Source of the DNA: a virus
Lineage: Duplodnaviria; Caudoviricetes
Length of the DNA stretch: 62,015 nt
Strand: one strand, 5' to 3'
Virus record (IMG/VR): IMGVR_UViG_3300033076_000935
Span: 1 to 62,015 of that record
Below the pieces are notes generated by a model. It worked only from the letters and a program-made list of their open reading frames with translations, was not told where the DNA came from and did not search any database. A program made the position numbers and the translations under genes. Below, one piece after another: positions 10,778-31,353 of the stretch; position 1 is the first letter of the stretch, and every line of letters starts with the position of its first letter.

Positions 10778-11329
10778 TTAGATTAGAGATTTGTTAGCAT
10801 CTCCTTGTCTATACTTACGTTTTATATCTACATCTTCTAGAGAAGGATTGGTAATGCCAAGGTATTCGTTTAATCCTTTAAGTTGATCTCTTCTTAAATA
10901 AATACCTTCATAGGTAACTTGATAACCATTCAGATTTAATAATTTAGTTCTAGTCTTTGAATACTGTTCTGTCATTTGATCGCAGTAATTCTGATTTACT
11001 TTAGAAGGGTTATATACATAGTGGCTATGCCATTTTTTACTCTGTACTGCGTGTACTAGACTCTGTGCTTGTTCCTGTGTATTCTCTCTAGTAAGAATTA
11101 TATGTTTATCAAACTTATAGTAGAAATCTAAGAAATGCTTACCTCCTTGTTCATCCATAACCTTAACTACTACATTATCAGATTCCCATATTAAACTCTC
11201 CGGGTATTTGTCGTGAGTTGGATCGATATTGTAAGGTTCAAAGATACCTTCATACTTAAGTGAATTAGCAATATAATATGTTAAAGATGTTGAGCCTGTT
11301 CTAGCTAGAGTGTATATAAGTATTCTCAT
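10778..11329 (-). CDS. Sulfotransferase-like P-loop protein
   Basis: LARTGST PAPS-binding loop, EPY, LTR..QAQS. Confidence 0.65.
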   Translation of the reverse strand: MRILIYTLARTGSTSLTYYIANSLKYEGIFEPYNIDPTHDKYPESLIWESDNVVVKVMDEQGGKHFLDFYYKFDKHIILTRENTQEQAQSLVHAVQSKKWHSHYVYNPSKVNQNYCDQMTEQYSKTRTKLLNLNGYQVTYEGIYLRRDQLKGLNEYLGITNPSLEDVDIKRKYRQGDANKSLI

Positions 11330-11700
11330 AAAGACCTGCCATAATTTTTATAATCTTCAGAGATAAAAGAAGTCTTGTAGTAACTTCCTCTAGGTTGGTT
11401 TAGTTTATGTTCAACAACGTGGTAACTAACTGTTATTTCATCCCCTCTATCAATAGGTCTATTAGCATATAAAAGGTAACCTGTCTCTACTTTAACTAAA
11501 GATGTATTAGGTGTTTCACTGTGGTTACAATATCTACCTAAAAGATCTGTTTCCCATAAGGTACCTGTTAGACGGCTACCATTTCTGCTAGGTGTATTTT
11601 GGATATAAGTTCCTACTAAGTCTTCTGTTTCAAAATAAATGTTTGAAAAGACTCCAGTTCCTTTTACCGGTAATACTATTAATGTAAAGTTAATCTCCAT
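11326..11700 (-). CDS. SET domain methyltransferase
   Basis: GxGVF, RYCNHSETPN, GDEITVSY. Confidence 0.85.
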   Translation of the reverse strand: MEINFTLIVLPVKGTGVFSNIYFETEDLVGTYIQNTPSRNGSRLTGTLWETDLLGRYCNHSETPNTSLVKVETGYLLYANRPIDRGDEITVSYHVVEHKLNQPRGSYYKTSFISEDYKNYGRSL

Positions 11701-13222
11701 GAAGCATCTGTACGTTATCTATCGAGTTGTTTATAACTTCCTGTAAATGAGATCTTAGCTTATCTCTAAATGGTTTTAGCTTATGATCTAAATTTAGGAG
11801 TTTATTTTCTTTTTCTATATTTTCTAAACTAAGTGTCCCGTTACCAACTCCTACAATATACCAGCTGTATATATCAAAGACTTCTCCTCCTGTAAGTTCA
11901 TGTAGGTCTAAATTTTTAGGAGTTCTTCTTTCCCACAATTTTAACAGCTTATCTAAACCTGGTGGAACATTTACTTTATCGCTATAATTTTTCCAAAATG
12001 GAGTATCTTTTCTTGTAGTGTAAAAATGGTAATATAAGAAGCACATTACCTCGTGGTTAAGACCGGCTATTGCTTTGTTATATTGATCCAGATCTTCTTG
12101 ATTATTTTCAGACATTAGAGAAGGATCTAAATTAACAAGTTGCATTAGAGCTATCATTAGTGAAGTAGCTTCTAACGGTTCGACAAATCCTGAGCTTAAT
12201 CCTATAGCCATGCAATTCTTTACCCAAACGTCTTTATATCTACCTGCGTTAAATTGGAACACTTTACCTAATCTTTCAATCGGGTATCCTAGAACTTCTT
12301 CAATTTCGTCATAAGCTTGTTCTGGTGTTATATAATTACTATCAAAAGAGTAGCCCATACCCCAACGGTGTTTAACCGGTATTTGCCACATCCATCCGTA
12401 CTTCATAGCTACACAATTTGTCTCCGGTCTTAAAACTTTTTCCTTATGTGGAACAAAAAACGGGACAGCTGCGTCTGTAGTCAGGTATTTTTTATAAGAA
12501 ATCCATTCTGTTTTATAAAAGTTACCTACAATAAGTCTATTAAAACCACTACAGTCGAAAATAAAATCTAAAGGAAGAGTCTGTCCATTCTTTAAGCTAA
12601 TAGCTGTAATTGTTCCATCTTCTTTAGAGTGTATCTCTTTTAGTTTAGAATCAATTCGTTTAATACCTCTACCTTCTCCTATTTTTGCTAAATATACAGC
12701 TGCTTTTCTAGCATTAAAATGGAACGAATATCCAGATGAACTCTGTACTTTGTTATCGATAGAGTAGAATGGGCTTTTCTGTTCGTTAACCAAAGCGTTA
12801 ACAGGTATTACCTCTTCTAAGTTCTCTTTATTAGCAACAGCATTTAGTATATAATAGGCTGAGTTTGTGTTAGGAATTTTACTTGCATGATTAAATCCTA
12901 ATGAGTGTATAGCTTTAAAATCTAAAGTAGTCCCAGGAGGAGCTAAAAAAGGGTGTAGGTAACTTGTACCGTCTCCTTTCCAGTTTGTAAACCTGATACC
13001 TGTCTTAAAAGTAGCATGTGCTTCTCTTTTAAATTCTCCTAAAGGTATCTGCAAAGTCTGTAAGAATAAAGGTAACATAGGTACCGATCCTTCTCCAGCT
13101 CCTAATATTCCAATCTCTGAGCTTTCTACTAACGTAACTTCAGCATCATCAAAAAGATGTTTTGCATATAATGCTGTTAACCATCCAGCAGTTCCTCCTC
13201 CTAGTATAACTATATTTTTCAT
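11690..13222 (-). CDS. Tryptophan halogenase-like flavin-dependent enzyme
   Basis: GGGTAGW, GAGEGS, FK, DCSGF, WMWQIP (WxWxIP), GFVEPLEAT. Confidence 0.88.
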   Translation of the reverse strand: MKNIVILGGGTAGWLTALYAKHLFDDAEVTLVESSEIGILGAGEGSVPMLPLFLQTLQIPLGEFKREAHATFKTGIRFTNWKGDGTSYLHPFLAPPGTTLDFKAIHSLGFNHASKIPNTNSAYYILNAVANKENLEEVIPVNALVNEQKSPFYSIDNKVQSSSGYSFHFNARKAAVYLAKIGEGRGIKRIDSKLKEIHSKEDGTITAISLKNGQTLPLDFIFDCSGFNRLIVGNFYKTEWISYKKYLTTDAAVPFFVPHKEKVLRPETNCVAMKYGWMWQIPVKHRWGMGYSFDSNYITPEQAYDEIEEVLGYPIERLGKVFQFNAGRYKDVWVKNCMAIGLSSGFVEPLEATSLMIALMQLVNLDPSLMSENNQEDLDQYNKAIAGLNHEVMCFLYYHFYTTRKDTPFWKNYSDKVNVPPGLDKLLKLWERRTPKNLDLHELTGGEVFDIYSWYIVGVGNGTLSLENIEKENKLLNLDHKLKPFRDKLRSHLQEVINNSIDNVQMLHGD

Positions 13223-13698
13223 ATCAATGTCTCTTGTTTTTTAAGATACGAACTTTCTTCTAAGAATGCAACTAAAGTATACCTTATACCGTCTTCTACT
13301 AGATTAACTCTATGTGGAATATCTGGTGGAAATATTAAAGCCGTATTTGGAATAGGCTTTATCATCTTTATGTTGTAGTCTATATATTCAAACTCTCCTC
13401 CTTTAAATTCATCGTTAAGAAAGCAGACTACGTTTTCAATAAGAAACTGATCATGAGTATGAAAATTAGTAGCTACTTTAAAGTTTGCATCAATACGTTG
13501 AATTCTTAGTACATCTAATTTTCCTGTAAGTCCATGTTTTAAAAAAGCATCTTGTACTCTACTACGAAGAAGTCCCTCTACATTAACTCCTCTAAAATTG
13601 TATATACCATCTTGTACCTTTTTGTACTTACTTCTATACGCATACTTACAGAGGTCATTATATAACTCTTCGTTGAAAAACTGTTTACAAATCTTCAT
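13219..13698 (-). CDS. 2OG-Fe(II) oxygenase
   Basis: HxD (HTHD), LNDEFKGGE, HRV...GIRY. Confidence 0.8.
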   Translation of the reverse strand: MKICKQFFNEELYNDLCKYAYRSKYKKVQDGIYNFRGVNVEGLLRSRVQDAFLKHGLTGKLDVLRIQRIDANFKVATNFHTHDQFLIENVVCFLNDEFKGGEFEYIDYNIKMIKPIPNTALIFPPDIPHRVNLVEDGIRYTLVAFLEESSYLKKQETLI

Positions 13699-14402
13699 TA
13701 GATTAACGTATTTGCGATCTTAAAAGGAGGTTCAATTAACTTGTAATAAAAATTTTCTAAATGACTGTCGATTACTAATGCTGTATCGATAGTTTTAGTA
13801 TGATTTGTCATGATAAACTCGAATGGTTTTCCTGTTACTTTTCTTACGTAGTCCTCTAACACCGATAGCTCTTTCATATTAAAATACAGAATGCTTGTAT
13901 CATTTTCATGCCACCTAGAAGGACCAGTCATCACTGAAGTGAATATCATATAGGTGTTCTTATTGTAAGGAACTCCTCCTGGTATTAATTTTTTAAAGAA
14001 GTTAGCACAGTTATTAATATCTTGAAGATTCGAACTAAATCCAATCTCACTTTGCCAAGCGTTTATAAAAGCATTTCTATCTACTTTTGCTAGAGCTTCT
14101 GAAGTTTTAGGACTATATTCTGAAATGTATTTGATAACATACTTCCAGGCAGATAAAAATCTTTCAAGAGGATCTCTTTCTATAGCAATAACCGGGTAGT
14201 CATACCCAAAGTACTCTCTTAGTTTTGAGATTCTTTCATGAGCATGACGACGAGGTTCTAAGCCAAGGTCGGCTTGTCTTTGAGCTAATATATTGTCACT
14301 AGGATACTTAATAGAAAGTCCTGCTAAAAAGCAGGAACGTTCAAATGCTACTGTAGCTGTTCTAGGGATCTTTAGAAACAAAAACTTATTATCAACTAAC
14401 AT
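13698..14402 (-). CDS. Sulfotransferase family protein
   Basis: KIPRTAT 5'-PSB loop and RDPLERFLSAW 3'-PB motif. Confidence 0.75.
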   Translation of the reverse strand: MLVDNKFLFLKIPRTATVAFERSCFLAGLSIKYPSDNILAQRQADLGLEPRRHAHERISKLREYFGYDYPVIAIERDPLERFLSAWKYVIKYISEYSPKTSEALAKVDRNAFINAWQSEIGFSSNLQDINNCANFFKKLIPGGVPYNKNTYMIFTSVMTGPSRWHENDTSILYFNMKELSVLEDYVRKVTGKPFEFIMTNHTKTIDTALVIDSHLENFYYKLIEPPFKIANTLI

Positions 14403-14418
14403 ATAACCTTTTTACATT

Positions 14419-14532
14419 TTATGATAAGTGTTTATCTCTAATTAGACTAAATACTGATTCTATTACATTCTTTACTTTTGTGTCTGTAGCCGAAGAGGTC
14501 GGTACTGTGACAGTGTCTACTATGTTTGCCAT
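14419..14532 (-). CDS. Small Ser/Thr-rich peptide (37 aa), not in ORF track
   Basis: MANIVDTVTVPTSSATDTKVKNVIESVFSLIRDKHLS; starts immediately after the stop of the 641-aa gene and fills the gap to the next gene. Confidence 0.6.
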   Translation of the reverse strand: MANIVDTVTVPTSSATDTKVKNVIESVFSLIRDKHLS

Positions 14533-14533
14533 A

Positions 14534-16459
14534 TTACGCTAATTTTTTTGCAAAGTTGTGAACTAAGATACCTTCTGCAATATAGTTGTGGGTATCTTCT
14601 ACTGAAATATTATATACAATTCCTTTAAAATCTTCAAATTCTAAAGTTTCTACCATTACCCAATCTCCTAATAAGTTAATAAAGTATTCTCCTGTTGTTA
14701 GTTTCTCTACAACTAAGTCGCCGTGGAAGTCTTTATCTACTTCTGGATTAGCAGCAGCCCATCTAATGTTACCTTCAAAGTCCTTAATTGCAAATGGGTG
14801 ACCTACTGTTGCTTTTGTTTTGATTCCGTTAATAATTACTAACTTGTCATCGTATTCTGTCTTCCAAAGACCTTTTACAGTCTTAGTAACAACGTCATTT
14901 TTTTGTAAATCGAAAGATTGAACTACATCTCCGATTTGGATATCTTTAATCTCTTTTTGACCATCTGCTGTAGTCACCATTGCTTCTCCTATAAAGCAAG
15001 CTGATTGACAAGTCCAGCAAGAGTTGTAACAACTATACCATCCGCAATTATATCCATTACACCAACATGGGTTGTGCTGTACTAATGTAATGTTTGTTGC
15101 TTCATCTAATACAGATAAGAAAATATCTTGCTCTTCTACATCCACTTCGTAAATTACCTTAGTATCGTAAACTGGTTCTAAAGAGGTAATTTCCTTCTTA
15201 ACTAAACTATTTGTAGCAACATCTAATAATACTACTTTATCTCCTAATTCAACCTGTCCTAGAGATTTGAATCGAGTTAAGTTACTACCGCTTACTTCTG
15301 TGTAGAAAGTTGATCTTGTAGAATCATCCCAAGTTGTTCCGTCTTCTAATGTAATATTTAAGTAAACTGTTTCTAAACTAGAGCTTTGGAATCCTACAAC
15401 TGTTGCAGTATTCACTACTAAAGAGCTTTGCATGTCTGCAAAAGAAGAAGAGAAGCCAAATACATCTACATAAGAACCTGTAGGGAAGTTACTAAATTGT
15501 GCTGATTTAACAACTGTTCCTTGTTCTACTTGGTCAATTGTAATATACTCACCTGTAGCAGTAACTAACTTTGTATCTTGATCAACGTGGTATATGTTCT
15601 TTTGTTCGTCTGTAGAAAGTTTAGAAATCCACTTAACTCTAGATTTATTAGTTAACGCTGTGGTTCCTTCTTGTAACTCATCTGGCCAAATATCTAATGC
15701 ATAAGGAGAAGTCTGATGGTAAGAACCTAAGTGTAATGTGTCTAGATTACCTCCGTAAACTAAATCAATACTTCTAATAATAGAGTACCTTCCTTCTTTA
15801 ATATTATTTTCAGAATTAATAAACTCTTGAATAAAGTTAGCACCCGTCGTAGATCCTTTTAATGCATCTAGTTGAGATTGTGTTGTAATTTTATGTGCTT
15901 GTGGATATACCTTGGCATCGTATTGCGGGTATCTAGACTTAACAACTAAATTTGGAGTCTTACTTGCATCAAATTCTGTTAAAGTTGTTAGATTATATTC
16001 CGGAGTATCTATAAATGTTGGGATAGCGTAAGACTGGCTTTGAATTAAATCCTGAAGGTTTAATTTATCTGCGCAATAAGTCTCATCTACTAAAGCTGTT
16101 CCATCGTAGGCTTGTCTTAAGATAAACTTAGTAGGAGTATCTTCGATGTAAGGTACTGTAGCTGCGTAAGTGTTTACTTGGTATGGGGTATATGTAATAC
16201 CCATTGCTTCACAGATAGTCTGTAATTTAGTACCTAAAGAGATGTTTACTCTAAATTTAGGATCTGCTACTACTTGTTGATCGTTGAAAATATAGACTAC
16301 TTCCTCTATTGAATTAGCTTGGAAAAGACTTTCTAATCCAGTAAAATCTAAGTGAGGTATCATACTCTGGTAAATACCAGTGCTTGTGTTTAGCTCTACT
16401 AACCTTGCATTACCGTTATCATCAAGTAAAAAATCACTTCCTATTAAAACAGCTTTCAT
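14534..16459 (-). CDS. Polyprotein: circularly permuted ATP-grasp-like domain + Hint domain + Cys/Trp/Tyr-rich peptide + Hint domain
   Basis: GSDFLLD..G..RLVELNT, VVKSR, FIQEFI; Hint1 aa~291-463 ending YEVDV..QHN; peptide aa464-487; Hint2 aa488-635 CFIGEA..VYNISVEDTHNY..VHN. Confidence 0.8.
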   Translation of the reverse strand: MKAVLIGSDFLLDDNGNARLVELNTSTGIYQSMIPHLDFTGLESLFQANSIEEVVYIFNDQQVVADPKFRVNISLGTKLQTICEAMGITYTPYQVNTYAATVPYIEDTPTKFILRQAYDGTALVDETYCADKLNLQDLIQSQSYAIPTFIDTPEYNLTTLTEFDASKTPNLVVKSRYPQYDAKVYPQAHKITTQSQLDALKGSTTGANFIQEFINSENNIKEGRYSIIRSIDLVYGGNLDTLHLGSYHQTSPYALDIWPDELQEGTTALTNKSRVKWISKLSTDEQKNIYHVDQDTKLVTATGEYITIDQVEQGTVVKSAQFSNFPTGSYVDVFGFSSSFADMQSSLVVNTATVVGFQSSSLETVYLNITLEDGTTWDDSTRSTFYTEVSGSNLTRFKSLGQVELGDKVVLLDVATNSLVKKEITSLEPVYDTKVIYEVDVEEQDIFLSVLDEATNITLVQHNPCWCNGYNCGWYSCYNSCWTCQSACFIGEAMVTTADGQKEIKDIQIGDVVQSFDLQKNDVVTKTVKGLWKTEYDDKLVIINGIKTKATVGHPFAIKDFEGNIRWAAANPEVDKDFHGDLVVEKLTTGEYFINLLGDWVMVETLEFEDFKGIVYNISVEDTHNYIAEGILVHNFAKKLA

Positions 16460-16483
16460 ATTTTGAGTTTAAATTAATTCGTT

Positions 16484-16491
16484 TATAAATA
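16484..16491 (-). promoter_or_regulatory. Class B motif TATTTATA (putative late promoter)
   Basis: Recurs shortly upstream of several genes, including the lysis cassette. Confidence 0.5.
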
Positions 16492-16520
16492 AATATCTAG
16501 CTAGAAGACTTCCGCTAGAC

Positions 16521-16973
16521 TTATATAATGCTTTTCGTATACTTAATCAAGTTGCTTCTAAAGTAACTAATTAAAAGGTATTGAGTACCTTCTAAAATAG
16601 GTTTAAAATCTACATCTATTCCGGAATCGAAATAAATTCCTGTATTCGGAAACGGCTTCACAGTTGCTTCTTTATATTGAAGCTCTCCTCCTGTATAGTT
16701 ATCGTTTATGAAGTACACAAGAATCGAGTAGTCTGGATTGTTAAACTGTGTGTAAGTTGTTCTATCTCCTTTAGTTCTTTTACTAAAGTACATTACATCA
16801 CATTGGCTTTTTAAGCCCATTCCTATTAAAAAGTTTTCTACATCTATAGCAAACTTGTAAGGTGGGTATGTAAATCTATAATAGTTTCCGTCAGAACTTT
16901 CAACAGCATACTTCCCTTCGTAAATCATAGACTCACAAAACTCTTTTGGGAATAAGCTATCGTATATTATCAT
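16521..16973 (-). CDS. Degenerate 2OG-Fe(II) oxygenase-like protein
   Basis: INDNYTGGEL and PILEGTQY motifs, but no His ligands. Confidence 0.6.
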   Translation of the reverse strand: MIIYDSLFPKEFCESMIYEGKYAVESSDGNYYRFTYPPYKFAIDVENFLIGMGLKSQCDVMYFSKRTKGDRTTYTQFNNPDYSILVYFINDNYTGGELQYKEATVKPFPNTGIYFDSGIDVDFKPILEGTQYLLISYFRSNLIKYTKSII

Positions 16974-17569
16974 TTTTTCAACTCTGTTATATTAAAGCTA
17001 ATATTAGAACAAATAGCTATTCTGGTTCCTTCTGAATTTGGCGATAAGTTTGGTTTATGTTCTACATCTCCTTTAAAAAATATAAAATCTCCTTCTTCTG
17101 GTTTTGTTGCATAAACTTTGCCGTCTTTATCTTTAAGTAAGAGCGTACCTTCGTTTCCTTGTAAGTCATCTGGAACTTGTACATAGAAGCAGTAAGTCCA
17201 GTCTGTAAGGATAGGAGCATTTACTCTAGTGTCTGGGTAGTTAATAGCAGCAGTATGTACATGAAAAGCATTTTGAGGATCTTTAGAGTTCTTATCTTGA
17301 ATATAACTCCAGGTCTTACCCGCAAATGCCTGTCCTTTCAAGCTCTCAATCCCAGAGAGTTTCATAGCAACTGTCATACCGTAGTTGATAATATAATCAA
17401 TCTCCTCACTATGTACTTTAATTTCTGTTGTATTGAAATCTGTACTACCTAGTAACCAGTTGTTCTGATTTACTCTATAGATAATATCTTCTTGACTATA
17501 CTGCCAATCAAACTTAGTCTTATAAATTGAAAGGGTGTCGCTAATTTTATACTCTCTTACTTCTCTCAT
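16970..17569 (-). CDS. Putative 2OG-Fe(II) oxygenase
   Basis: HVH, FYVQVP..GTL, PEEGDFIFF..H.P...R. Confidence 0.7.
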   Translation of the reverse strand: MREVREYKISDTLSIYKTKFDWQYSQEDIIYRVNQNNWLLGSTDFNTTEIKVHSEEIDYIINYGMTVAMKLSGIESLKGQAFAGKTWSYIQDKNSKDPQNAFHVHTAAINYPDTRVNAPILTDWTYCFYVQVPDDLQGNEGTLLLKDKDGKVYATKPEEGDFIFFKGDVEHKPNLSPNSEGTRIAICSNISFNITELKK

Positions 17570-18102
17570 ATAAGTGTTTTAGCTTGCTTTTGTTTAAATT
17601 CGATAAAGACTGTAAATGTAAGTCTACCATCTTTTATGGAAGTACCAAACGGCTCTTGAACTGCATGGTTAATATTAGCGGGGTAACATACAAAACGGTT
17701 AAAGACATTTTCAACCTCTCCTACTTGAATGTAGTTATCATCGTAGAAAGAAGTTCCAGAATCAGGTACTTGGTGTGGAGCGAGATATATAACTCCTGCG
17801 TAATCTTTTTTACGGTCTTTATGTATGCGGTTTTTATTATAACCTTTTTCTTTTGTAGTATCTTCTAACGTGTAATGAAAGTAGCAATCATAGTTTGCTG
17901 TAGCAAATTTAGGATCTCTTTTGCTTAATTCAGATTTTACAAGTTCAGTTACCTTTAAGGTAAGTTCGTTTCGTTCTAAACATCTATGCCCTTTCCAACC
18001 TTGTTCTTCAAAGGAAGGTGTATAATTCAACTCTAAAGCTTGATCTCTTATAGCCCATACATCTTCTAAAAAATTATCTATCTGAATTAAACCTTGTATC
18101 AT
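17566..18102 (-). CDS. Putative 2OG-Fe(II) oxygenase (DUF6445-like)
   Basis: IDNF, IHKD, AGVIYL, SGTSFY, NRF..Y...H...RL. Confidence 0.75.
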   Translation of the reverse strand: MIQGLIQIDNFLEDVWAIRDQALELNYTPSFEEQGWKGHRCLERNELTLKVTELVKSELSKRDPKFATANYDCYFHYTLEDTTKEKGYNKNRIHKDRKKDYAGVIYLAPHQVPDSGTSFYDDNYIQVGEVENVFNRFVCYPANINHAVQEPFGTSIKDGRLTFTVFIEFKQKQAKTLI

Positions 18103-18386
18103 ATTAAAGTTTTATCTTGCTTAATCTTTGAGCTTTCACTTAGGTACTTATCTTCTACCGGTTTCCATTTATGTAAAGGACATGCATCGTACAAACGACT
18201 GAAGATTTTACCTTCTAGCAAACAGCTACACTCTCCGCAATACTCAGACCATTTATGGTTATTGAATAGAGTTTCTCTTTTAGAACATTGCTCACATATC
18301 TCATAACGTTCTTTAGCCAAATTCTTTTGGCTTTCTTTTGGATTAACTTTAGTGATCCAAGCAGAGATAATCTCTTTCATATTCAT
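18099..18386 (-). CDS. Small Cys-rich protein (DUF6171-like)
   Basis: RYEICEQC...CGECSC...CPLHKW. Confidence 0.65.
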   Translation of the reverse strand: MNMKEIISAWITKVNPKESQKNLAKERYEICEQCSKRETLFNNHKWSEYCGECSCLLEGKIFSRLYDACPLHKWKPVEDKYLSESSKIKQDKTLI

Positions 18387-18387
18387 C

Positions 18388-18723
18388 TTATGCCAATAAA
18401 TGTCTCAATATAATCGTCAACGATATACAGATCCAGATTGTATTAAAGAGAATTAGAGTAGGTAAGCTTTTTCTCATACTAGCCCATATCAATAAAGAAG
18501 ACGTAGCTAATGTAAGAACGTGAAAGTACCATAACTCAATACCAAATATAAGTCCTGGTATGATAATGATAGCCTTAGCTAACCATGCAGTTAGTTCAAT
18601 TGTATTATAATCTGTCCAGTATTCTTTAGATAAGTACATTTGGTACCTATCGAAGATATTCTTCCAGCCTACTAGTGTATATAGAAATGCGATTGCTACT
18701 ATAAAGGATATTAGGTATATCAT
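18388..18723 (-). CDS. Membrane protein
   Basis: Three to four hydrophobic helices. Confidence 0.65.
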   Translation of the reverse strand: MIYLISFIVAIAFLYTLVGWKNIFDRYQMYLSKEYWTDYNTIELTAWLAKAIIIIPGLIFGIELWYFHVLTLATSSLLIWASMRKSLPTLILFNTIWICISLTIILRHLLA

Positions 18724-18938
18724 ATATTATCTTTTTTTAAACCATACTTAATCCATCTATACCATATACGTTCGTGTATGTAGTACTGAATGGGTTTGTA
18801 AATTAATTCTGCTACGCCAAAGGCTGCTCCTACTTTTACAGAACCGCTGATAAGCCACATTAACAAGAAACCAATTACGGTACTTATTATCCTGTAGCTT
18901 ATGGTTTTAGCTATGTGACGTTTCCTTTGTACTATCAT
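18720..18938 (-). CDS. DUF2061-like small membrane protein
   Basis: KTISYR...YYIHERIW; this family is typically found next to APS kinase. Confidence 0.75.
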   Translation of the reverse strand: MIVQRKRHIAKTISYRIISTVIGFLLMWLISGSVKVGAAFGVAELIYKPIQYYIHERIWYRWIKYGLKKDNI

Positions 18939-19336
18939 AACTTACCCTCTTCTTTCATTTGATTACGGATACCAGTTGCTGATATGTCTCTAATATCGTC
19001 TGGTGGTACGTGTTCGATAACATCATATCCAACTCCTCTACCTATATTGATAGATTCAATATCTGGAATGATTATAATCTTCAACTTACCTGTATGAATT
19101 AAATCTAGCAATTCGTTTGTAAGATTTCTCAAAACCTCTTGAGGAGTCCATGGATTCCTTTCATCTGGTTCTACATCTCTAATTGCTAATAAAACTCTCT
19201 TACCTTCTTTTAACCTCTGGTCAATTAACCAACGATGTCCGGCATGCCAAGGTTGCCATCTTCCAATAAACATCGAATACTTAACGTCGTTAGAGGAAGA
19301 TTGAAATGCTGCTGTTGCTAAATATTTTGTACTCAT
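18935..19336 (-). CDS. HIGH-superfamily nucleotidyltransferase (cytidylyltransferase-like)
   Basis: GRWQPWHAGH, ISATGIR. Confidence 0.8.
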   Translation of the reverse strand: MSTKYLATAAFQSSSNDVKYSMFIGRWQPWHAGHRWLIDQRLKEGKRVLLAIRDVEPDERNPWTPQEVLRNLTNELLDLIHTGKLKIIIIPDIESINIGRGVGYDVIEHVPPDDIRDISATGIRNQMKEEGKL

Positions 19337-19352
19337 ATAGTATTATACGAAT

Positions 19353-19796
19353 TTATTTGACAACTTCCAACTCTTTTCTTATTTTCATATAGGAATCAAA
19401 AGGAGTTTCGTTTGTTGTATCAATATCGATAAAGTTCTCTACAGGAGGTTCATAGTTTGCTACATGGTACTGAGTACGTCCTCTATCTTCAAAGGCATGT
19501 ACGTAGAATTCTACTATACCGTCTCCTAGCTTCTCTTTGAAACTTTCTCTCTGGTCTCTATAGGGTGATACTAACGATACAAAAACATTAAAGCCTTTCT
19601 TATGTAGGAAGAGAGCCATATTCTGAGCTAGCTCTATATTCTTTCTTCTTCCGGCTTCTGAATAGTCTTTATTATCAAATAATTCTCTTATATCATCTCC
19701 GTCGATATTAATCGCTTTAGGAAATAAATGAACAGCTAGCATATAAGCTAATGTTGTCTTACCCGCTCCTGGTTGTCCAGTGAACCAATATACCAT
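19353..19796 (-). CDS. cysC: Adenylylsulfate (APS) kinase
   Basis: WFTGQPGAGKTT, DGDDIR, R..NI, VSPY, YEPP. Confidence 0.85.
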   Translation of the reverse strand: MVYWFTGQPGAGKTTLAYMLAVHLFPKAINIDGDDIRELFDNKDYSEAGRRKNIELAQNMALFLHKKGFNVFVSLVSPYRDQRESFKEKLGDGIVEFYVHAFEDRGRTQYHVANYEPPVENFIDIDTTNETPFDSYMKIRKELEVVK

Positions 19797-26893: not shown

Positions 26894-28078
26894 TTAGATG
26901 TAGATTAATCCGTCCTGTACTTCTGTTAATCTATGAACTGTTATTATTAGATTACCAAGTTTAAACTTACCTGGCTGTCCTTGTTCTTTAAGAATATCTG
27001 GAAGTAGTTGTATTAGTTGAAAGTCTTCATTAGAAAAAGCTTTACCATCTACCTCAATAACAACATCTTCGTATTCATGAGGATTCTGATAGCCTAATGT
27101 CATTACTCTTTTATGTAAATCGTAAGCTGTTCGTTTGTGTTCATATTCGTAATAAGATGCAAGTAAAACTCCCATCTCATCATCTATATAAATTCTATCA
27201 CACCAAGGTTCTAAAGCATCTAATAACTGTAAATTACAATGTTTAACTGCTATTCCTATTAAGTACTTAGGACTTACAATTGGCTTCATTAGAGACGAGT
27301 GTTTAACGGTAGAACCCCATTTACGAATAAACTCTCTAGTAGAGTTATTCATTAGTGTTTGCCATTCTTCATCTTTAGCTTCTCCTACTTTACCGTGCTG
27401 GAATTGTCCTCCTCTTCCTGTCAAATGGTAAACTAAACTAGACCAAGGTTGTTTAAACGTAAAACCTGCTAACATCATTCTATTAAAGATATCAGAATCT
27501 TCTCTAGCTGATTTTAAAATAGGGTCATGTCCCCCTAACTTTTCAAAGTCTTTCTTATACATCATCCATGGAGCAAAGATACCTTCTGTTACCTTAGAAG
27601 TCTGCATCTCTCTTTCTACAAAAGCATTAAACGCTTCTTCTTTAAACTCTTCAGGCCAGATACCAAAGTCGATTAAAATCTTTTCTCCTCCATTAGGATG
27701 TAAAGGTGGTTCTATTCTAGTAGAACATACTACAGTCTTCTCAGCTAAATGCTCCCAAGCTTTTAAATCTGCGTCTTTACCTAGCATCATATCAGCGTGA
27801 AATATCATAAAGATATCTGTAGTGCTTTGTTCTATACAGTAGTCGTATGCTTTACCTATTCCAAAAAGTTCTTTACCTAACTTTGGATTAACATAGTACG
27901 TAACGTTATATTTGTCAGCATTTTCGGATAACCATTTTACTGTTCCGTCGTTATCTGAATCTACAAATACTACAATTTCATGGTCTTTTCTAAAAGCATT
28001 CTTTCTAATAGAAGGTATACATGTCTTTAAGTATCTCAAGTTACTTTTACTCGGTATACAAAATGTTATTTTCTCCAT
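26894..28078 (-). CDS. Glycosyltransferase family 2
   Basis: DSDNDGT, HADM, GGHDP..REDSD. Confidence 0.85.
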   Translation of the reverse strand: MEKITFCIPSKSNLRYLKTCIPSIRKNAFRKDHEIVVFVDSDNDGTVKWLSENADKYNVTYYVNPKLGKELFGIGKAYDYCIEQSTTDIFMIFHADMMLGKDADLKAWEHLAEKTVVCSTRIEPPLHPNGGEKILIDFGIWPEEFKEEAFNAFVEREMQTSKVTEGIFAPWMMYKKDFEKLGGHDPILKSAREDSDIFNRMMLAGFTFKQPWSSLVYHLTGRGGQFQHGKVGEAKDEEWQTLMNNSTREFIRKWGSTVKHSSLMKPIVSPKYLIGIAVKHCNLQLLDALEPWCDRIYIDDEMGVLLASYYEYEHKRTAYDLHKRVMTLGYQNPHEYEDVVIEVDGKAFSNEDFQLIQLLPDILKEQGQPGKFKLGNLIITVHRLTEVQDGLIYI

Positions 28079-28908
28079 TATTTAATTCCATTTATCATTC
28101 CGTAAGTATCAAAGGTAGGTAATCCACCCCACTTACTGTAAAATTTTCTTATATTTTCTGCTTCTGCTTTTTTCTGTCTTTCAGAAGATTGACCTCCATT
28201 CTCCTCTAACCTATGACTACCTCTAGCTCCGAAATGCCAAACAACAGATTTAGAAGGCATCACAAACTCGACACCTGCCTGTAACATTCGTAGAAATAAA
28301 TCCATATCATCCCAGCTTGTAGGTGCAAATAGAGGATCATTTCCTCCTACTTCATCCCAAACTGTTTTCTTAACTAAACCTGAAACTCCTTCTCCTTTTG
28401 GTATCTGAAAATCATTCAATAGGCTAAATTCTTTAGCATACTCTTCTAATCTTTCTTTATCAAAATCGTTTGCGTAACCACCAAAGTCTGATGGATTAAC
28501 CAGTAATGTCCCCCAGCGAGTTGGAGAGTTAAACATATTAGGTTCTATTCTAAAAGAATTAACCCATAACTTCTTACCAGGATTATTTTCATGTACCTTA
28601 AGTAACTCTAAATCCCAATTTTCTGTAACGTAGAAGTCTGAATGTAAAAAGTTAATATACTCTGTTTCGCATTTCTCAGCGATAAAATTCATTCCTTGAC
28701 CTAATCCGGAAGGGTTTAAATCTTCTATATAAACTGTTAGGTTGTATTTATCTTTATTCTCAAGTAACCATTCATTAGTCCCATCAGTACATTTTTCTGC
28801 ATGTATAATAAAAGGAGCATCTTTATAGTAACTGTTCTTTCGAACAGACTCTACTGCTAATTTCAAATAAGGTAAATTGTTGTAAGTACTAATACAGTGT
28901 GTTATCAT
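28078..28908 (-). CDS. Glycosyltransferase family 2
   Basis: STYNN, CTDGT, LHSD, VGGND...DDMDL. Confidence 0.85.
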   Translation of the reverse strand: MITHCISTYNNLPYLKLAVESVRKNSYYKDAPFIIHAEKCTDGTNEWLLENKDKYNLTVYIEDLNPSGLGQGMNFIAEKCETEYINFLHSDFYVTENWDLELLKVHENNPGKKLWVNSFRIEPNMFNSPTRWGTLLVNPSDFGGYANDFDKERLEEYAKEFSLLNDFQIPKGEGVSGLVKKTVWDEVGGNDPLFAPTSWDDMDLFLRMLQAGVEFVMPSKSVVWHFGARGSHRLEENGGQSSERQKKAEAENIRKFYSKWGGLPTFDTYGMINGIK

Positions 28909-29681
28909 AAAGTTGCTTCTTGTTCCCAGTTAATAAAATAAGGTAACCATTTTTCTTCAGCATGAGCCGAGTAGCTAGGGATTGGGCTTAGTAATTCCTT
29001 TCCTTTTGCTTTTAGTAAATTAAATGTGACGCCACCCATCGGTAAAGGCTTACCGTTATGTAATGCAAAAATTTCATCATAGTCTTCTTGAACATTCTTA
29101 GCAGTAGTAGCCCATGTCATAGTAGTACTCCCAACCGTTCTCCAGTGTGTAGACTTACTTACGTAAATTTTACTTTCTATACCTCTACCGTAAATCACTC
29201 CAGGCTTCCTTACACCGTTTTCATCAACATCAACTAAACCATGTCCCCAAGTGTATCTAGGATCTTTTGTATCCTGGTACTTGTCTGGATGATCATATAA
29301 GGTAACATAATCTGCTTTCAAGTCTTCAAATGCTTCTAGTAGAATACTACGTGCACCTGTTCTATGAATATAATCATCTTCTAAAAAGTAAAAGACTGTG
29401 TCTTCTGGACATCCGTCCTTTATAATAGTGTGAGCTAATTGCCAGCTAGCTAAAAATGATCCGGTGTTACCGTTATTCGTTAAGTATATGTTTTGAGGAT
29501 TTACATACTTCTGAACCATTTCGTATGTTTCTTTAGAGACGTTATCACAAAGTACTACAAGGTTCTTATTTGTGAATTCTCTAACATAGACTCTCAAGCA
29601 GTTCTCCTTACTTGCATAAGAAGGTTTTACTTTTTCTGCGTTACTGTAATCACTTATTCTATATATTGTTACTAGATTCAT
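28905..29681 (-). CDS. Glycosyltransferase (GT-A fold)
   Basis: YFLEDDYIH, LYDHPDKY, STTMT. Confidence 0.7.
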   Translation of the reverse strand: MNLVTIYRISDYSNAEKVKPSYASKENCLRVYVREFTNKNLVVLCDNVSKETYEMVQKYVNPQNIYLTNNGNTGSFLASWQLAHTIIKDGCPEDTVFYFLEDDYIHRTGARSILLEAFEDLKADYVTLYDHPDKYQDTKDPRYTWGHGLVDVDENGVRKPGVIYGRGIESKIYVSKSTHWRTVGSTTMTWATTAKNVQEDYDEIFALHNGKPLPMGGVTFNLLKAKGKELLSPIPSYSAHAEEKWLPYFINWEQEATL

Positions 29682-30552: not shown

Positions 30553-31352
30553 AACTGAGCTAAAGTAATTCTTTCAAACCTTTTATCGGCTGGGTTTGAT
30601 TCTGATAAGATACGAACTTTAATTTGATTCTCCAAGAACCAATCATACATACTTTCCGTACATTCTACGGTATTTAAAAGTTCTTCGTATTCTGGTCCGC
30701 CGCCAACTACTCCTTCTTTGTATAAAGATTTAGCATGTTGGTCCAACCAATTAGGGTCTACTGCCATTAAATTCTTGGAAGGGTACTTACTTAGGTCGCC
30801 AATATCCCACCCAATTGTTACTATTTCTGTACATCCTAAATGTAATGCTAATGGAAAGCCAGATTCATACATTATACCAGGTCCCCATATTAACTTTCCT
30901 TCGTTGTATAATTTCCAGTTATCAAAATTTCTAGTATAAGCTGTTGATTGATTCTTCTGAACCCAAGGGGTTGAGTAAACCGGTATTGCTAAATCTATAC
31001 GCTGATCCCAGCTTTCTATCCTGTCTAACTCCCCTTGTATATTCATAGCAGTTAGCTGCCAGTGTCTTATAGTATCTTCAGAATAATAAGAATAAGGTTG
31101 GTAGTTGTAGACAGAAACTAGATGGAAATCAGTTACTTCTTTAACATATTCATAAGCCTGCTTACAGGCAATAACTAACTTACCTTCTAACTTAGACAAC
31201 AACTCTTCTCTATCATGAGAAGTTAATGTAGGTCCACATGTTACCAAATAAGCTGTTTCACCTTTATAAGCATCTTTAATAGCTTCGATTCTTTTGAGAG
31301 AATCTTCAAGGTTTCTAATATCTTTACGTAAGTCTGGGGTTTTTATGTGCAT
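30549..31352 (-). CDS. DUF115/Maf-like putative nonulosonate transferase
   Basis: YKGETAYLVTCGPTL...ALHLGCTEIVTIGWD. Confidence 0.6.
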   Translation of the reverse strand: MHIKTPDLRKDIRNLEDSLKRIEAIKDAYKGETAYLVTCGPTLTSHDREELLSKLEGKLVIACKQAYEYVKEVTDFHLVSVYNYQPYSYYSEDTIRHWQLTAMNIQGELDRIESWDQRIDLAIPVYSTPWVQKNQSTAYTRNFDNWKLYNEGKLIWGPGIMYESGFPLALHLGCTEIVTIGWDIGDLSKYPSKNLMAVDPNWLDQHAKSLYKEGVVGGGPEYEELLNTVECTESMYDWFLENQIKVRILSESNPADKRFERITLAQL

Positions 31353-31353
31353 A

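What the first reader, a model, noticed from the sequence alone, without database searches (positions are those of the whole stretch)
14534..16459. Self-excising peptide precursor: a 24-aa Cys/Trp/Tyr peptide between two Hint domains, fused to an ATP-grasp-like ligase
Seen: aa1-~280 carry ATP-grasp motifs in permuted order (D..G..LxExN at the N-terminus, then VVK and FIQEFI). Hint1 (nt 15071-15589) has His where Cys1 is expected but keeps a terminal His-Asn. It is followed by PCWCNGYNCGWYSCYNSCWTCQSA (nt 14999-15070; 6 Cys, 3 Trp, 3 Tyr). Hint2 (nt 14555-14998) starts CFIGEA and ends VHN, followed by Phe, so there is no +1 nucleophile. Known: Hint domains lacking Cys1 can still cleave at the C-terminal Asn, and Cys1-containing Hints without a +1 Cys/Ser/Thr form an N-terminal thioester instead of splicing. 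Inference: Hint1 frees the peptide N-terminus and Hint2 activates its C-terminus as a thioester, giving protease-free release, cyclisation or ligation of a RiPP-like core with its ligase supplied in cis. I know of no described RiPP class with this architecture.
Basis: partly seen in the sequence, partly recalled or inferred. Interest (0 to 1): 0.95.

Follow-up and report, generated by a model that had tools for sequence, protein, structure and literature searches.

The report
Phage self-cutting cysteine-peptide precursor protein
A large uncultured phage encodes one protein that joins an ATP-using ligase, a self-cutting domain, a small six-cysteine peptide and a second, optional self-cutting domain, a layout that looks built to release a small peptide without any protease and that I found described in no paper.

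Summary
ORF 14534-16459 (-) encodes 641 aa in five parts:
- a ligase-like N-domain with ATP-grasp metal residues in permuted order;
- Hint1 (aa 291-463), with no N-terminal nucleophile but an invariant His-Asn end;
- a 24-aa six-Cys core;
- a canonical Hint2 (aa 488-635);
- the tail FAKKLA.

Profile comparison and two AlphaFold models confirm both Hint folds.

Among 250 relatives held here:
- Ligase plus Hint1 plus His-Asn is the constant part.
- The cargo is polymorphic, with an even Cys number in 191 of 194.
- Hint2 is facultative, present in 115 of 233, with at least 11 gains or losses.
- Hint2 always sits just before a Lys-containing tail: 114 of 114 have Lys, and none has Cys/Ser/Thr at +1.
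- Its nearest solved relative is Tetrahymena BIL2, reported to join its N-extein to a lysine.

I read Hint2 as a BIL-type module that removes itself, perhaps transferring the core onto the Lys tail. A dedicated cyclisation device seems less likely.

The gene lies in a conserved cluster of oxygenases, Trp halogenase and sulfotransferases. All cleavage steps are inferred.

The scan had already found the Hint2-less form on other genomes. The two-Hint form, an S74-like swap and a cargo-less tandem-Hint clade are new here.

The parts
14534..16459 (-). Whole ORF, 641 aa plus stop (P0001)
   Evidence: 250 relatives with the same N-domain among the 267 proteins held
15605..16459 (-). N-domain, aa 1-285: ATP-grasp-like ligase with permuted motif order. 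D9, E22-x-N24 come first, then K174, Q211-E212-F213 and R229.
   Evidence: Invariant D9/E22/N24/R115/D125 in 117 of 117. Foldseek 1m0t, 7uk6 and 3n6x at E about 1e-5. ESM features nearest ATP-grasp clusters at 0.93-0.94, a lead only. No Pfam hit.
15071..15589 (-). Hint1, aa 291-463: Hint fold without the N-terminal nucleophile (His291) or block-B His, ending His462-Asn463
   Evidence: hhalign against Hint2 98.9%, E 1.5e-17. Profile against 2jmz intein E 3.6e-8. Model of aa 1-467 has inteins as top PDB hits. Residue counts.
14999..15070 (-). Core peptide, aa 464-487: 24 aa, 6 Cys, 3 Trp, 3 Tyr, no Asp/Glu
   Evidence: pLDDT below 50 in the full model. Cys columns at least 90% conserved in A1.
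14555..14998 (-). Hint2, aa 488-635: canonical BIL/intein-type Hint (Cys488, T551-x-x-H554, H624, His634-Asn635)
   Evidence: Pfam, NCBIfam intein_Cterm 4.7e-8. Foldseek top hit BIL2 6y75, E 4.3e-11. Conservation 43 of 44 for C, T, H and HN.
14537..14554 (-). C-terminal tail FAKKLA, aa 636-641: +1 Phe, Lys638-Lys639
   Evidence: Lys is in the tail of 114 of 114 Hint-bearing relatives, KK in 76 of 114.
14419..14532 (-). 37-aa ORF directly downstream, conserved in position
   Evidence: tblastn E<=0.2 in 36 of 77 loci. All hits are on the same strand within 150 nt after the precursor stop, and none lies elsewhere.
13698..14402 (-). Sulfotransferase-like protein, 234 aa
   Evidence: Pfam Sulfotransfer_2 E 9.3e-4, below cut-off. 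Homolog in 73 of 80 loci.
13219..13698 (-). 2OG-Fe(II) oxygenase, 159 aa
   Evidence: Pfam 2OG-FeII_Oxy_3 E 8.1e-6. This cluster, which also holds the 150-aa ORF, is in 79 of 80 loci.
11690..13222 (-). Tryptophan halogenase, 510 aa
   Evidence: Pfam Trp_halogenase E 1.4e-103. In 62 of 80 loci with a Cys/Trp core and 1 of 19 loci without one.
16521..16973 (-). 150-aa protein, same cluster as the 159-aa oxygenase
   Evidence: clustered with 13219-13698. No Pfam or NCBIfam hit of its own.
16970..17569 (-). 199-aa protein, weak 2OG-Fe oxygenase likeness
   Evidence: NCBIfam FlmC-family E 1.4e-3, far below cut-off. Homolog in 68 of 80 loci.
18099..18386 (-). 95-aa Cys-motif protein of unknown family
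   Evidence: Homolog in 75 of 80 loci. No family hit.
10778..11700 (-). 183-aa protein (weak Stf0 sulfotransferase likeness) and 124-aa SET-domain protein
   Evidence: Pfam Sulphotransf E 0.035 and SET E 3.1e-8. The 183-aa protein is in 63 of 80 loci.
18720..19796 (-). DUF2061, HIGH-type nucleotidyltransferase-like protein and APS kinase (possible PAPS supply)
   Evidence: Pfam DUF2061 9.5e-17, CTP_transf_like 2.6e-3, APS_kinase 6e-18. In 38, 39 and 31 of 80 loci.

Best explanation
This is a phage-encoded, self-processing polyprotein.

Constant engine of the family: a ligase of the ATP-grasp fold (glutathione/glutathionylspermidine-synthase-like, permuted motif order) fused to a Hint domain. 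That Hint has lost everything needed to act at its own N-terminus but keeps the apparatus for Asn cyclisation.

Step 1 (inferred). Asn463 of Hint1 cyclises and breaks the Asn463-Pro464 bond. This frees the N-terminus of whatever is encoded downstream. Here the cargo is a 24-residue six-Cys, Trp/Tyr-rich core, probably three disulfides or other paired links.

Step 2 (inferred). Hint2 is a facultative BIL-type insert placed between the core and a short Lys tail. It makes a thioester at Ala487-Cys488 and cuts itself off at Asn635. The thioester is then resolved in one of two ways:
- by an amine of the tail (Lys638, Lys639 or the freed Phe636 amine), giving core plus Lys tail, the kind of product that Hint2-less relatives encode directly;
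- by water or thiol, giving the bare core.

Step 3 (inferred). The neighbouring Trp halogenase, 2OG-Fe(II) oxygenases, sulfotransferases with PAPS supply, and SET methyltransferase tailor the peptide. The cis ligase then acts on the released peptide's new amine or its C-terminal carboxylate.

Shown here: the domains, their conserved catalytic residues, the family-wide pattern and the gene neighbourhood. Not shown: any cleavage, ligation or modification.
For: Domains and folds.
- Both Hint folds and the ligase fold are supported.

Hint1 catalytic pattern in 117 sequences.
- HN 117 of 117.
- Block-F Asp/His 104 of 117.
- Cys at position 1: 0 of 117.
- Block-B His: 1 of 117.

Ligase active-site residues are invariant in all architectures.

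The cargo is polymorphic but patterned.
- 78 Cys-spacing patterns occur among 194 cargos.
- The Cys number is even in 191 of 194 (6 in 138, 8 in 39, 10 in 8, 12 in 4, 16 in 2).

Architectures among 250 relatives.
- 115 have a Cys tail only.
- 79 have a Cys core plus one Hint.
- 36 have Hints without a Cys core.
- 3 have neither.
- 9 have no HN by my rule.
- 8 are cut.

Hint2 residues are conserved in 43 of 44 (C488, T551, H554, H634, N635).

Insert position and turnover.
- The insert always sits before a Lys tail. Lys is present in 114 of 114 tails, and KK in 76 of 114 against 6 of 118 Hint-less ends. None of 114 has Cys/Ser/Thr at +1.
- There are at least 11 gains or losses on the tree.
- Sister pairs P0122/P0130 and P0131/P0135 differ by the insert.

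Precedents.
- The nearest solved structure is BIL2 of the Tetrahymena BUBL locus (E 4.3e-11). Its depositors describe ATP-independent formation of a Lys isopeptide with the N-extein's C-terminus (passage read).
- An S74-like autocleaving module occupies the same place in P0089 and P0104, just after a Lys.

Neighbourhood.
- Neighbours are conserved in 80 loci.
- Trp halogenase is in 62 of 80 loci with a Trp-rich core against 1 of 19 without one, Fisher p 5e-9.

Host range. The family is essentially viral: one 5-kb MAG contig matched among one genome each of 185,579 species.
Against: No experiment. Cleavage at either junction is inferred from residue conservation only.

The ligase assignment is modest.
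- It rests on Foldseek E about 1e-5 with TM about 0.3, plus motifs.
- Pfam sees nothing (RimK in 3 of 69 at best E 0.055).

The cargo-less clade weakens the peptide-centred reading.
- The tandem-Hint clade has no Cys core yet keeps the ligase, Hint1 and part of the neighbourhood: oxygenase 11 of 19, 183-aa protein 10 of 19, 199-aa protein 8 of 19.
- So the Cys peptide cannot be the only substrate or purpose.

The Lys argument has weaknesses.
- Lys or Arg right after His-Asn is also usual in unrelated tandem Hint arrays without the ligase. The tail Lys may therefore travel with the Hint rather than be the ancestral tail.
- 28 of 118 Hint-less relatives have no Lys in their last four residues.
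- Here +1 is Phe, and the lysines are at +3 and +4.

Limits of the counts.
- The halogenase comparison used different detection settings in the two sets, and the loci are related, so the p-value overstates the case.
- The protein sets are the best-scoring lists of two searches and are not an unbiased sample.
Confidence: 0.55

Rival explanations
1. Hint1 frees the N-terminus, and the Hint2 thioester is the productive chemical handle. It drives head-to-tail cyclisation of the core, or ligation of the core to another molecule or protein. The tail and Hint2 are discarded.
For: - All residues for thioester formation are kept, and none of 114 relatives has a +1 nucleophile.
- A freed alpha-amine two residues from a Cys would be available after Hint1 cleavage (Cys at +2 in 89 of 117).
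- BIL2 of BUBL loci uses just such a thioester to conjugate its N-extein to other proteins.
Against: - Hint2 is absent from 118 of 233 relatives and is gained or lost at least 11 times. The family's product chemistry therefore cannot depend on it, unless the ligase does the same job by ATP in the others.
- The conserved Lys or KK tail after Hint2 would have no role.
Confidence: 0.15
2. Hint2 is a selfish or neutral mini-intein-like insert with no role in the product. It merely removes itself, by cleavage at both ends or by non-canonical splicing, and persists because removal is harmless.
For: - Recurrent gain and loss, and nearly identical sisters with and without it.
- One to three tandem copies in one clade.
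- Similar tandem arrays in unrelated proteins.
- BIL domains are described as lying in hypervariable regions of non-conserved proteins (review passage).
Against: - It has no homing endonuclease.
- It always inserts at one place, before the Lys tail, in distant clades.
- Catalytic residues are kept in 43 of 44.
- KK is enriched only in Hint-bearing forms (76 of 114 against 6 of 118), which suggests co-adaptation.

This rival overlaps the best explanation and differs only in denying any benefit.
Confidence: 0.2
3. The protein is not a peptide precursor. It is an ATP-grasp enzyme whose Hint1 is a dead scaffold domain, and whose Cys-rich C-terminus is a metal-binding or regulatory tail that stays attached. 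Only Hint2 is active, as an ordinary parasite.
For: - Hint1 lacks Cys1 and the block-B His.
- The ligase residues are the most conserved part of the protein.
- The cargo-less clade shows that the enzyme can do without the Cys core.
Against: - His-Asn at the Hint1 end is invariant in 117 of 117, although the flanking residues vary. That is hard to explain without Asn cyclisation.
- The cargo varies in length from 21 to 175 residues with 78 Cys patterns, unlike a fixed regulatory tail.
- Self-cleaving modules of two unrelated folds, Hint and S74-like, are recruited right after the core.
Confidence: 0.1
4. A polymorphic-toxin-like conflict system. The constant ligase-Hint1 module delivers or releases fast-changing disulfide-rich toxins or blockers, aimed at competing phages, the host or grazers. 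The tailoring enzymes diversify them.
For: - A constant N-part, then a Hint, then a variable C-terminal cargo is the PT-HINT logic (passages read).
- The cargo is very diverse, with even Cys counts.
- The family is restricted to viruses.
Against: - There is no secretion or trafficking domain and no candidate immunity gene identified, although the conserved 37-aa ORF downstream is untested.
- An enzyme as the constant part is not the toxin pattern.
- Within clades the core is conserved rather than hypervariable.

This is a reading of the purpose and is compatible with the mechanism in the best explanation.
Confidence: 0.2

Closest known systems
BUBL loci of ciliates (BIL-ubiquitin-like-BIL polyproteins; BIL2 structure 6y75/6tmm)
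   Same: - The cargo is flanked by Hint-type domains.
- The downstream BIL has Cys1 and a terminal His-Asn and no canonical +1 nucleophile.
- Its thioester is resolved by a lysine amine without ATP (passage in PMC8616854).
- BIL2 is the best PDB match of the window's Hint2 (E 4.3e-11, 26-27% identity).
   Different: - The cargo here is a 24-aa six-Cys peptide, not a ubiquitin-like domain.
- The upstream Hint lacks its nucleophile.
- An ATP-grasp-like ligase is fused in cis.
- The setting is a phage with tailoring enzymes next door.
- The second Hint is optional in the family.
Pretoxin-HINT (PT-HINT, PF07591) releasing domains of bacterial polymorphic toxins
   Same: - A Hint domain is placed just before a variable C-terminal cargo and is predicted to release it by autoproteolysis (passages in PMC3482391).
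- The window's Hint2 passes the PT-HINT cut-off (34.9 against 27.7 bits).
   Different: - The cargo is a tiny Cys-rich peptide, not an enzyme toxin.
- There is no secretion domain or RHS/filament part.
- The constant part is an enzyme.
- Hint1, the domain in the PT-HINT position, is not recognised by the Pfam model (1 of 69 relatives at E 4.6e-4).
Type-A bacterial intein-like (BIL) domains
   Same: - Cys1, C-terminal His-Asn and no C'-flanking nucleophile.
- They lie in variable regions and occur as tandem copies.
- They cleave at the N- or C-end (review passage in PMC7765530).
- The C. thermocellum BIL 2lwy is among the top fold matches.
   Different: Found here in phages, at one fixed site in front of a Lys tail, and downstream of a second Hint that has no nucleophile.
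ATP-grasp ligases of the glutathione synthetase / glutathionylspermidine synthetase / YjfC-YgiC type
   Same: - Fold matches to 1m0t, 7uk6 and 3n6x at E about 1e-5.
- A D-x12-E-x-N metal triad, a Lys and a Q-E-[FY] stretch are present.
- The permuted order recalls eukaryotic glutathione synthetase. That point is recalled, not tested here.
   Different: - No sequence-level family hit.
- Fused to a Hint domain and a peptide.
- Substrates are unknown.
Phage clusters of tandem 2OG-Fe(II) dioxygenases and tryptophan halogenases (cyanophage Syn9; Iyer et al. 2010, PMC2938197)
   Same: Phage gene arrays combine several unrelated dioxygenases with Trp halogenases, and elsewhere with sulfotransferases. 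They were predicted to modify peptides or amino-acid-derived metabolites (passages read).
   Different: - That paper's main text names no substrate for the phage clusters and does not contain 'Hint' or 'intein' (0 occurrences).
- Here a candidate ribosomal substrate with its own release device sits inside the cluster.
RiPP pathways with ATP-grasp ligases (graspetides)
   Same: A ribosomal peptide, an ATP-grasp enzyme, and tailoring genes side by side.
   Different: - The core has no Asp or Glu to cross-link.
- The enzyme is fused to the precursor.
- A Hint domain stands where a leader peptide and protease would be.

Membership tests
Canonical intein (for Hint2) | Cys/Ser/Thr at position 1, block-B TxxH, terminal His-Asn | tested here: met
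   C488, T551-V-G-H554 and H634-N635 are present. Each is conserved in 43 of 44 aligned first canonical Hints.
Canonical intein (for Hint2) | Cys/Ser/Thr at +1 of the C-extein | tested here: not met
   +1 is Phe636. None of 114 Hint-bearing relatives has Cys, Ser or Thr at +1 (K 34, V 29, M 17, F 16).
Canonical intein (for Hint2) | Inserted in a conserved site of a conserved host protein and absent from some alleles | tested here: inconclusive
   Presence and absence among close relatives is seen. The site, however, is the variable C-terminal tail and not a conserved motif.
Type-A BIL domain (for Hint2) | Hint fold with Cys1 and C-terminal His-Asn, no C'-flanking nucleophile, located in a variable region, often in tandem | tested here: met
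   The definition is taken from a review passage. The original family alignments were not compared.
Hint superfamily (for Hint1) | Hint fold | tested here: met
   hhalign 98.9%, E 1.5e-17. 2jmz at E 3.6e-8. Foldseek TM 0.77-0.81 to mini-inteins for a model that lacks Hint2.
Hint superfamily (for Hint1) | N-terminal nucleophile and block-B His (needed for the acyl shift) | tested here: not met
   0 Cys, 5 Ser and 4 Thr of 117 at position 291. His in 1 of 117 at the block-B position.
Hint superfamily (for Hint1) | C-terminal His-Asn and block-F Asp/His (Asn cyclisation) | tested here: met
   117 of 117 His-Asn. D445 is Asp in 89 and His in 15 of 117. Activity itself is not testable here.
PT-HINT releasing domain of polymorphic toxins | Hint immediately upstream of a polymorphic C-terminal cargo, with a trafficking domain at the N-terminus | tested here: inconclusive
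   Position before a polymorphic cargo is met. No trafficking domain is present, and the N-part is an enzyme.
ATP-grasp superfamily (N-domain) | ATP-grasp fold | tested here: inconclusive
   Foldseek 1m0t, 7uk6 and 3n6x at E about 1e-5 but TM about 0.3 over 316-372 columns. No Pfam or NCBIfam hit.
ATP-grasp superfamily (N-domain) | Mg-binding Asp/Glu/Asn triad and ATP-binding Lys | tested here: met
   D9, E22 and N24 in 117 of 117, K174 in 115 of 117. That these are the metal and ATP residues is inferred from motif likeness and not from a superposition.
Graspetide (ATP-grasp RiPP) | Core with Asp/Glu and Thr/Ser/Lys side chains for omega-ester or omega-amide links | tested here: not met
   The 24-aa core has no Asp or Glu.
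RiPP in general | Ribosomal precursor whose core is modified by neighbouring enzymes and released from a leader | not testable with these tools
   Conserved tailoring-type neighbours and a built-in release device are suggestive only.
Peptidase S74 intramolecular chaperone (variant relatives P0089, P0104) | C-terminal domain with a Ser...Lys dyad motif, found at the ends of phage fibre proteins | tested here: inconclusive
   - Pfam Peptidase_S74 at E 7.2e-3 and 17 bits, below the cut-off of 22.
- The 78-aa segment matches the extreme C-termini of PHROG virion and tail-fibre families, best E 4.7e-9.
- No PDB sequence hit.
- The S-D-x-x-x-K spacing is read; its meaning is recalled.

The most novel reading that the evidence does not exclude
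Phages carry a protease-free, Hint-driven route to small ribosomal peptides.
- A nucleophile-less Hint cuts the product's N-terminus free.
- BIL-type Hints with no +1 nucleophile stitch the product's C-terminus onto a lysine. This would be isopeptide or peptide 'lysine splicing', so far reported only for a ciliate BIL.
- A permuted ATP-grasp fused in cis then couples or cyclises the product. Halogenase, oxygenases and sulfotransferases decorate it.

In the tandem-Hint clade the same machine would assemble very short peptides from exteins of one to nine residues. Examples are A-P / R-x / K, or W / K in the one locus of that clade that also has a Trp halogenase.

That would be a new RiPP-like class and a new natural use of protein splicing.
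Probability: 0.2. Interest if true: 0.92.

Novelty: new variant of a known kind. Interest (0 to 1): 0.75.

Why it matters
If the inferred steps are real, three things follow.
- A large, purely viral protein family makes small disulfide-type peptides with no leader peptidase, using Hint chemistry for release and perhaps for joining.
- The tandem dioxygenase/halogenase clusters of marine and freshwater phages would get a concrete candidate substrate. Their role has been open since at least 2010 (PMC2938197).
- A natural system would be available in which a Hint without a +1 nucleophile is always paired with a lysine tail. That makes 'lysine-resolved splicing' directly testable in a simple recombinant protein.

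Self-releasing, ligase-linked peptide cassettes would also be useful tools for peptide production.

Tried and rejected
Readings rejected
- Canonical intein for Hint2. The +1 nucleophile is absent here and in all 114 relatives.
- Graspetide. There is no acidic residue in the core.
- Cellular origin. One scan of genome contigs (one genome each of 185,579 species) gave a single 5-kb MAG contig, L080.

Searches that gave little or nothing
- Sequence-level proof of the ATP-grasp. Pfam on the protein, NCBIfam and Pfam on 69 relatives gave nothing significant. The claim rests on fold and motifs.
- S74 identity of the module in P0089 and P0104. Pfam is below cut-off, there is no PDB sequence hit, and PHROG hits fall on fibre C-termini only. 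It stays as 'S74-like'.
- Isolated phages. There was no DNA match. tblastn found only Hint2-type matches, in 13 records. The window's PolA is 75% identical to that of Flavobacterium phage vB_FspM_immuto.
- BFVD fold search gave only Hint-containing viral proteins and no full-length look-alike.
- A single-protein locus search with P0186 found nothing useful. An alignment of the clade (A4) worked.

Literature
- Searches found no paper describing an ATP-grasp-Hint-peptide fusion or a Hint-released RiPP.
- One search was badly phrased and useless. One search gave the BIL papers.
- Papers, and what I saw of each:
  - PMC2938197, passages.
  - PMC7765530, passages.
  - PMC8616854, passages.
  - PMC3482391, passages.
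  - Amitai 2003, Dassa 2004 (JBC and Trends Genet) and Chiarini 2021: seen only as reference-list entries.
  - The permutation of eukaryotic glutathione synthetase and the easy cleavage of Asn-Pro bonds: recalled, not read.
- Supplements are closed. The supplementary neighbourhood lists of PMC2938197 and PMC3482391 might mention this family, and I could not check.

Not run
- Complex prediction (no binding claim is made).
- The look-up of sequencing runs and read laying.

Rows dropped
- The tree used 231 of the 233 proteins with a recognised Hint1 His-Asn. Two were left out because their His-Asn lay before residue 400 (cut N-termini).
- 17 of the 250 relatives were not classifiable: 9 had no HN by my rule and 8 were cut.
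- 17 of the 267 held proteins have no N-domain and were looked at separately.

Full report
**1. What is in the sequence**

- The minus-strand ORF 14534-16459 encodes 641 residues.
  - aa 464-487 is a 24-residue segment with six Cys, three Trp and three Tyr.
  - aa 488-635 starts with Cys-Phe and ends in His-Asn, followed by Phe and then the tail A-K-K-L-A.
- Pfam recognises only the second Hint: Intein_splicing 1.7e-11, PT-HINT 2.2e-8, Hint 2.7e-7. NCBIfam adds intein_Cterm at 4.7e-8.
- The window is a 62-kb IMG/VR virus record, estimated 38% complete. Its family-A polymerase is 75% identical to that of Flavobacterium phage vB_FspM_immuto.

**2.

Models.
- An AlphaFold model built on a 117-sequence alignment is confident (pLDDT 90.4). 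The exceptions are the Cys segment 467-486 and the last three residues.
- Its best PDB matches are BIL2 of the Tetrahymena BUBL1 locus (E 4.3e-11), the C. thermocellum BIL and many inteins. The N-part matches a putative glutathionylspermidine synthase and yeast glutathione synthase at about 1e-5.
- To separate Hint1 from Hint2, I modelled aa 1-467 alone on 68 relatives that lack a second Hint (pLDDT 92.2, pTM 0.87).
- Inteins, hedgehog and BIL domains are again the top hits, with TM to target 0.77-0.81. They are followed by 1m0t and E. coli YjfC.

Independent checks on Hint1.
- hhalign of the Hint1 columns against the Hint2 columns gives 98.9%, E 1.5e-17, with His291 opposite Cys488.
- The Hint2-free profile finds the KlbA intein 2jmz at E 3.6e-8.
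- So segment 291-463 has a Hint fold.

The N-domain.
- It shows no sequence-level family hit.
- In 117 diverse relatives D9, E22, N24, R115 and D125 are invariant, and K174 and R229 nearly so.
- ESM features point to ATP-grasp clusters, as a lead only.
- I accept 'ATP-grasp-like, permuted order' as probable, not proven.

**3. Catalytic residues**

Hint1, in 117 sequences.
- Position 1 is never Cys (His 44, Gly 30, Lys 16, Ser 5, Thr 4).
- The block-B His is present once.
- His-Asn at the end is present in all 117.
- The block-F position is Asp in 89 and His in 15.
- This is the pattern of a Hint that can only cyclise its terminal Asn.

Hint2.
- It keeps Cys1, T-x-x-H and His-Asn in 43 of 44 aligned copies, and the block-F His in 30 of 44.
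- It should therefore be able both to form the N-terminal thioester and to cut at its C-terminus.

**4. The family**

Size and architectures.
- One search gave 448 proteins at E<=1e-3 among the 8000 candidates scored.
- The exhaustive HMMER search gave 2133 representatives at E<=1e-3, including Hint-only hits, and 82 at E<=1e-30.
- Of the 267 proteins held from these two lists, 250 have the N-domain:

| Architecture | Number |
|---|---|
| N-domain, Hint1, Cys-rich tail | 115 |
| Same, plus one canonical Hint after the Cys core (the window's layout) | 79 |
| No Cys core, one canonical Hint | 11 |
| No Cys core, two canonical Hints | 23 |
| No Cys core, three canonical Hints | 2 |
| Neither Cys core nor extra Hint | 3 |
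| No His-Asn found by my rule | 9 |
| Cut | 8 |

- The lists are best-hit lists and not an unbiased sample.

The cargo.
- Its length runs from 21 to 175 residues.
- 78 different Cys spacings occur among 194 cargos.
- The Cys number is even in 191 of 194.
- Together these argue for paired links such as disulfides.
- Within clades the core is well conserved.

**5. Hint2 is facultative and sits at one place**

- On a FastTree of the N-domain plus Hint1 (231 rows), presence of extra Hints needs at least 11 changes. Supported sister pairs differ by the insert: P0122/P0130 at support 100 and P0131/P0135 at support 98.
- In every case the insert lies after the Gly/Pro-rich end of the core and before a short tail.

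Tails.

| Feature | Hint-bearing (114) | Hint-less (118) |
|---|---|---|
| Lys present | 114 of 114, in the tail after the last His-Asn | 90 of 118, in the last four residues |
| Lys-Lys | 76 of 114 | 6 of 118, in the last six residues |
| Cys/Ser/Thr at +1 | 0 of 114 | not applicable |

- Two relatives carry a 70-residue module instead of a Hint, right after a Lys. Its best matches are the extreme C-termini of phage fibre and virion proteins (PHROG E 4.7e-9), and it hits Peptidase_S74 below the cut-off. If it is the autocleaving chaperone it resembles, the mature end would again be a Lys.
- The depositors of BIL2, the best structural match, describe ATP-independent formation of a Lys isopeptide with the C-terminus of the N-extein.
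- Together these observations make 'thioester resolved by a tail amine' a concrete hypothesis.
- Caveat: Lys or Arg right after His-Asn is also common in unrelated tandem Hint arrays without the ligase. The Lys may therefore belong to the Hint unit.

**6. The cargo-less clade**

- In 19 viral loci of the tandem-Hint clade, 17 proteins have Hint1 followed by zero to eight residues, one to three canonical Hints separated by one to eleven residues, and an end that is mostly His-Asn-Lys.
- The exteins add up to short basic peptides.
- This clade keeps the ligase residues and part of the neighbourhood. It almost never has the halogenase: 1 of 19, and that one locus has a lone Trp as extein.
- So the Cys core is not indispensable to the family. 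This weakens any reading that centres only on the Cys peptide.

**7. Neighbourhood**

Homologs of the window's neighbours in 80 loci, the window plus 79 viral contigs of up to 333 kb:

| Neighbour | Loci of 80 |
|---|---|
| Oxygenase pair | 79 |
| 95-aa Cys-motif protein | 75 |
| Sulfotransferase-like protein | 73 |
| 199-aa protein | 68 |
| 183-aa protein | 63 |
| Trp halogenase | 62 |
| Nucleotidyltransferase | 39 |
| DUF2061 | 38 |
| APS kinase | 31 |

- Many loci are short, so these are lower bounds.
- A 37-aa ORF directly downstream is conserved in position in 36 of 77 loci.
- Halogenase presence tracks the Trp-rich core (62 of 80 against 1 of 19, Fisher p 5e-9). The two sets were screened with different thresholds and the loci are related, so I treat this as suggestive.
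- Iyer et al. 2010 described phage arrays of dioxygenases with Trp halogenases and predicted peptide or metabolite modification. The passages I read name no substrate for those phage clusters, and the words Hint and intein do not occur in the main text.

**8. Mechanism, with odds**

| Inferred step | My odds |
|---|---|
| Asn463 cyclisation frees the core's N-terminus | about 0.75 |
| Hint2 removes itself at both junctions | about 0.7 |
| Thioester outcome: transfer to a tail amine, giving core plus Lys tail | about 0.35 |
| Thioester outcome: hydrolysis or thiolysis to a bare core | about 0.3 |
| The cis ligase acts on the released peptide | about 0.5 |

None of these steps was or could be tested with the tools.

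**9. Known relatives and novelty**

- The parts are known: Hint release of C-terminal cargo (PT-HINT), cargo between BILs (BUBL), BILs without a +1 nucleophile, and phage oxygenase/halogenase clusters.
- The combination is new: a permuted ATP-grasp-like ligase, a nucleophile-less Hint, a polymorphic even-Cys cargo, an optional BIL before a Lys tail, and a conserved tailoring cluster, all restricted to viruses.
- I found it in no paper and in no Pfam, NCBIfam or PHROG family with a function.
- The scan had already met the Hint2-less form on at least eight notes from other genomes, and the follow-ups reached the same core reading.
- New in this window: the two-Hint form, its recurrent gain and loss, the Lys-tail rule, the S74-like swap, the cargo-less tandem-Hint clade, the even-Cys rule and the halogenase correlation.
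- I rate it a new variant of known kinds, with interest 0.75.

Noticed in passing
window 14419-14532 (-): A 37-aa ORF lies directly after the precursor and is conserved in position. tblastn at E<=0.2 finds it in 36 of 77 related loci, always on the same strand within 150 nt of the precursor stop and never elsewhere. Its function is unknown. It could be a partner, an immunity factor or a second substrate.
   Followed up: partly
window 13219-18386 (-), ends of several ORFs: Several unrelated neighbours end in similar C-terminal residues...ETLI...NTLI...KSII...KTLI...KTLI (translations). Four of the gene junctions in this stretch overlap by 4 nt and one by 1 nt, so part of the pattern may come from start/stop overlap rather than from a tag.
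   Followed up: no
proteins P0089 and P0104 (relatives, not in the window): In these two relatives a roughly 70-aa module follows the Cys core right after a Lys, in place of a Hint. It resembles the C-terminal autocleaving chaperone of phage fibres: Pfam S74 at E 7.2e-3, and PHROG C-termini at E 4.7e-9.
   Followed up: partly
L089:8001-9827 and its flanks: This is the only tandem-Hint, cargo-less locus with a Trp halogenase homolog. A single Trp lies between Hint1's His-Asn and the next Hint, and a single Lys follows the last His-Asn. It may be coincidence, or it may point to a tiny Trp-Lys product.
   Followed up: no
L083:12724-13224: A separate 166-aa ORF consists of a canonical Hint alone and ends His-Asn-Lys-Asn-Leu. 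It lies 2.4 kb downstream of the family gene in the same locus.
   Followed up: no
proteins P0155-P0256 without the N-domain: Unrelated large proteins carry 2-7 tandem Hints joined by His-Asn-Lys/Arg-(0-3 residues)-Cys. Some have Cys-rich segments before, between or after the Hints (P0169, P0237, P0207, P0236). Cys-rich stretches next to Hint arrays therefore also occur outside this family.
   Followed up: partly
L080 (5-kb contig of a MAG labelled Methanobacteriota): This is the only hit in the one-genome-per-species collection, with 30% identity over aa 1-244 at the contig edge. It is probably a viral contig binned with the MAG.
   Followed up: no
window 26894-39469 and 47949-59268: Earlier notes on this window list a nonulosonic-acid/glycosyltransferase cluster and a 7-deazaguanine cluster. 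I checked only that ORF 47949-50306 is a family-A polymerase, 75% identical to that of Flavobacterium phage immuto.
   Followed up: no
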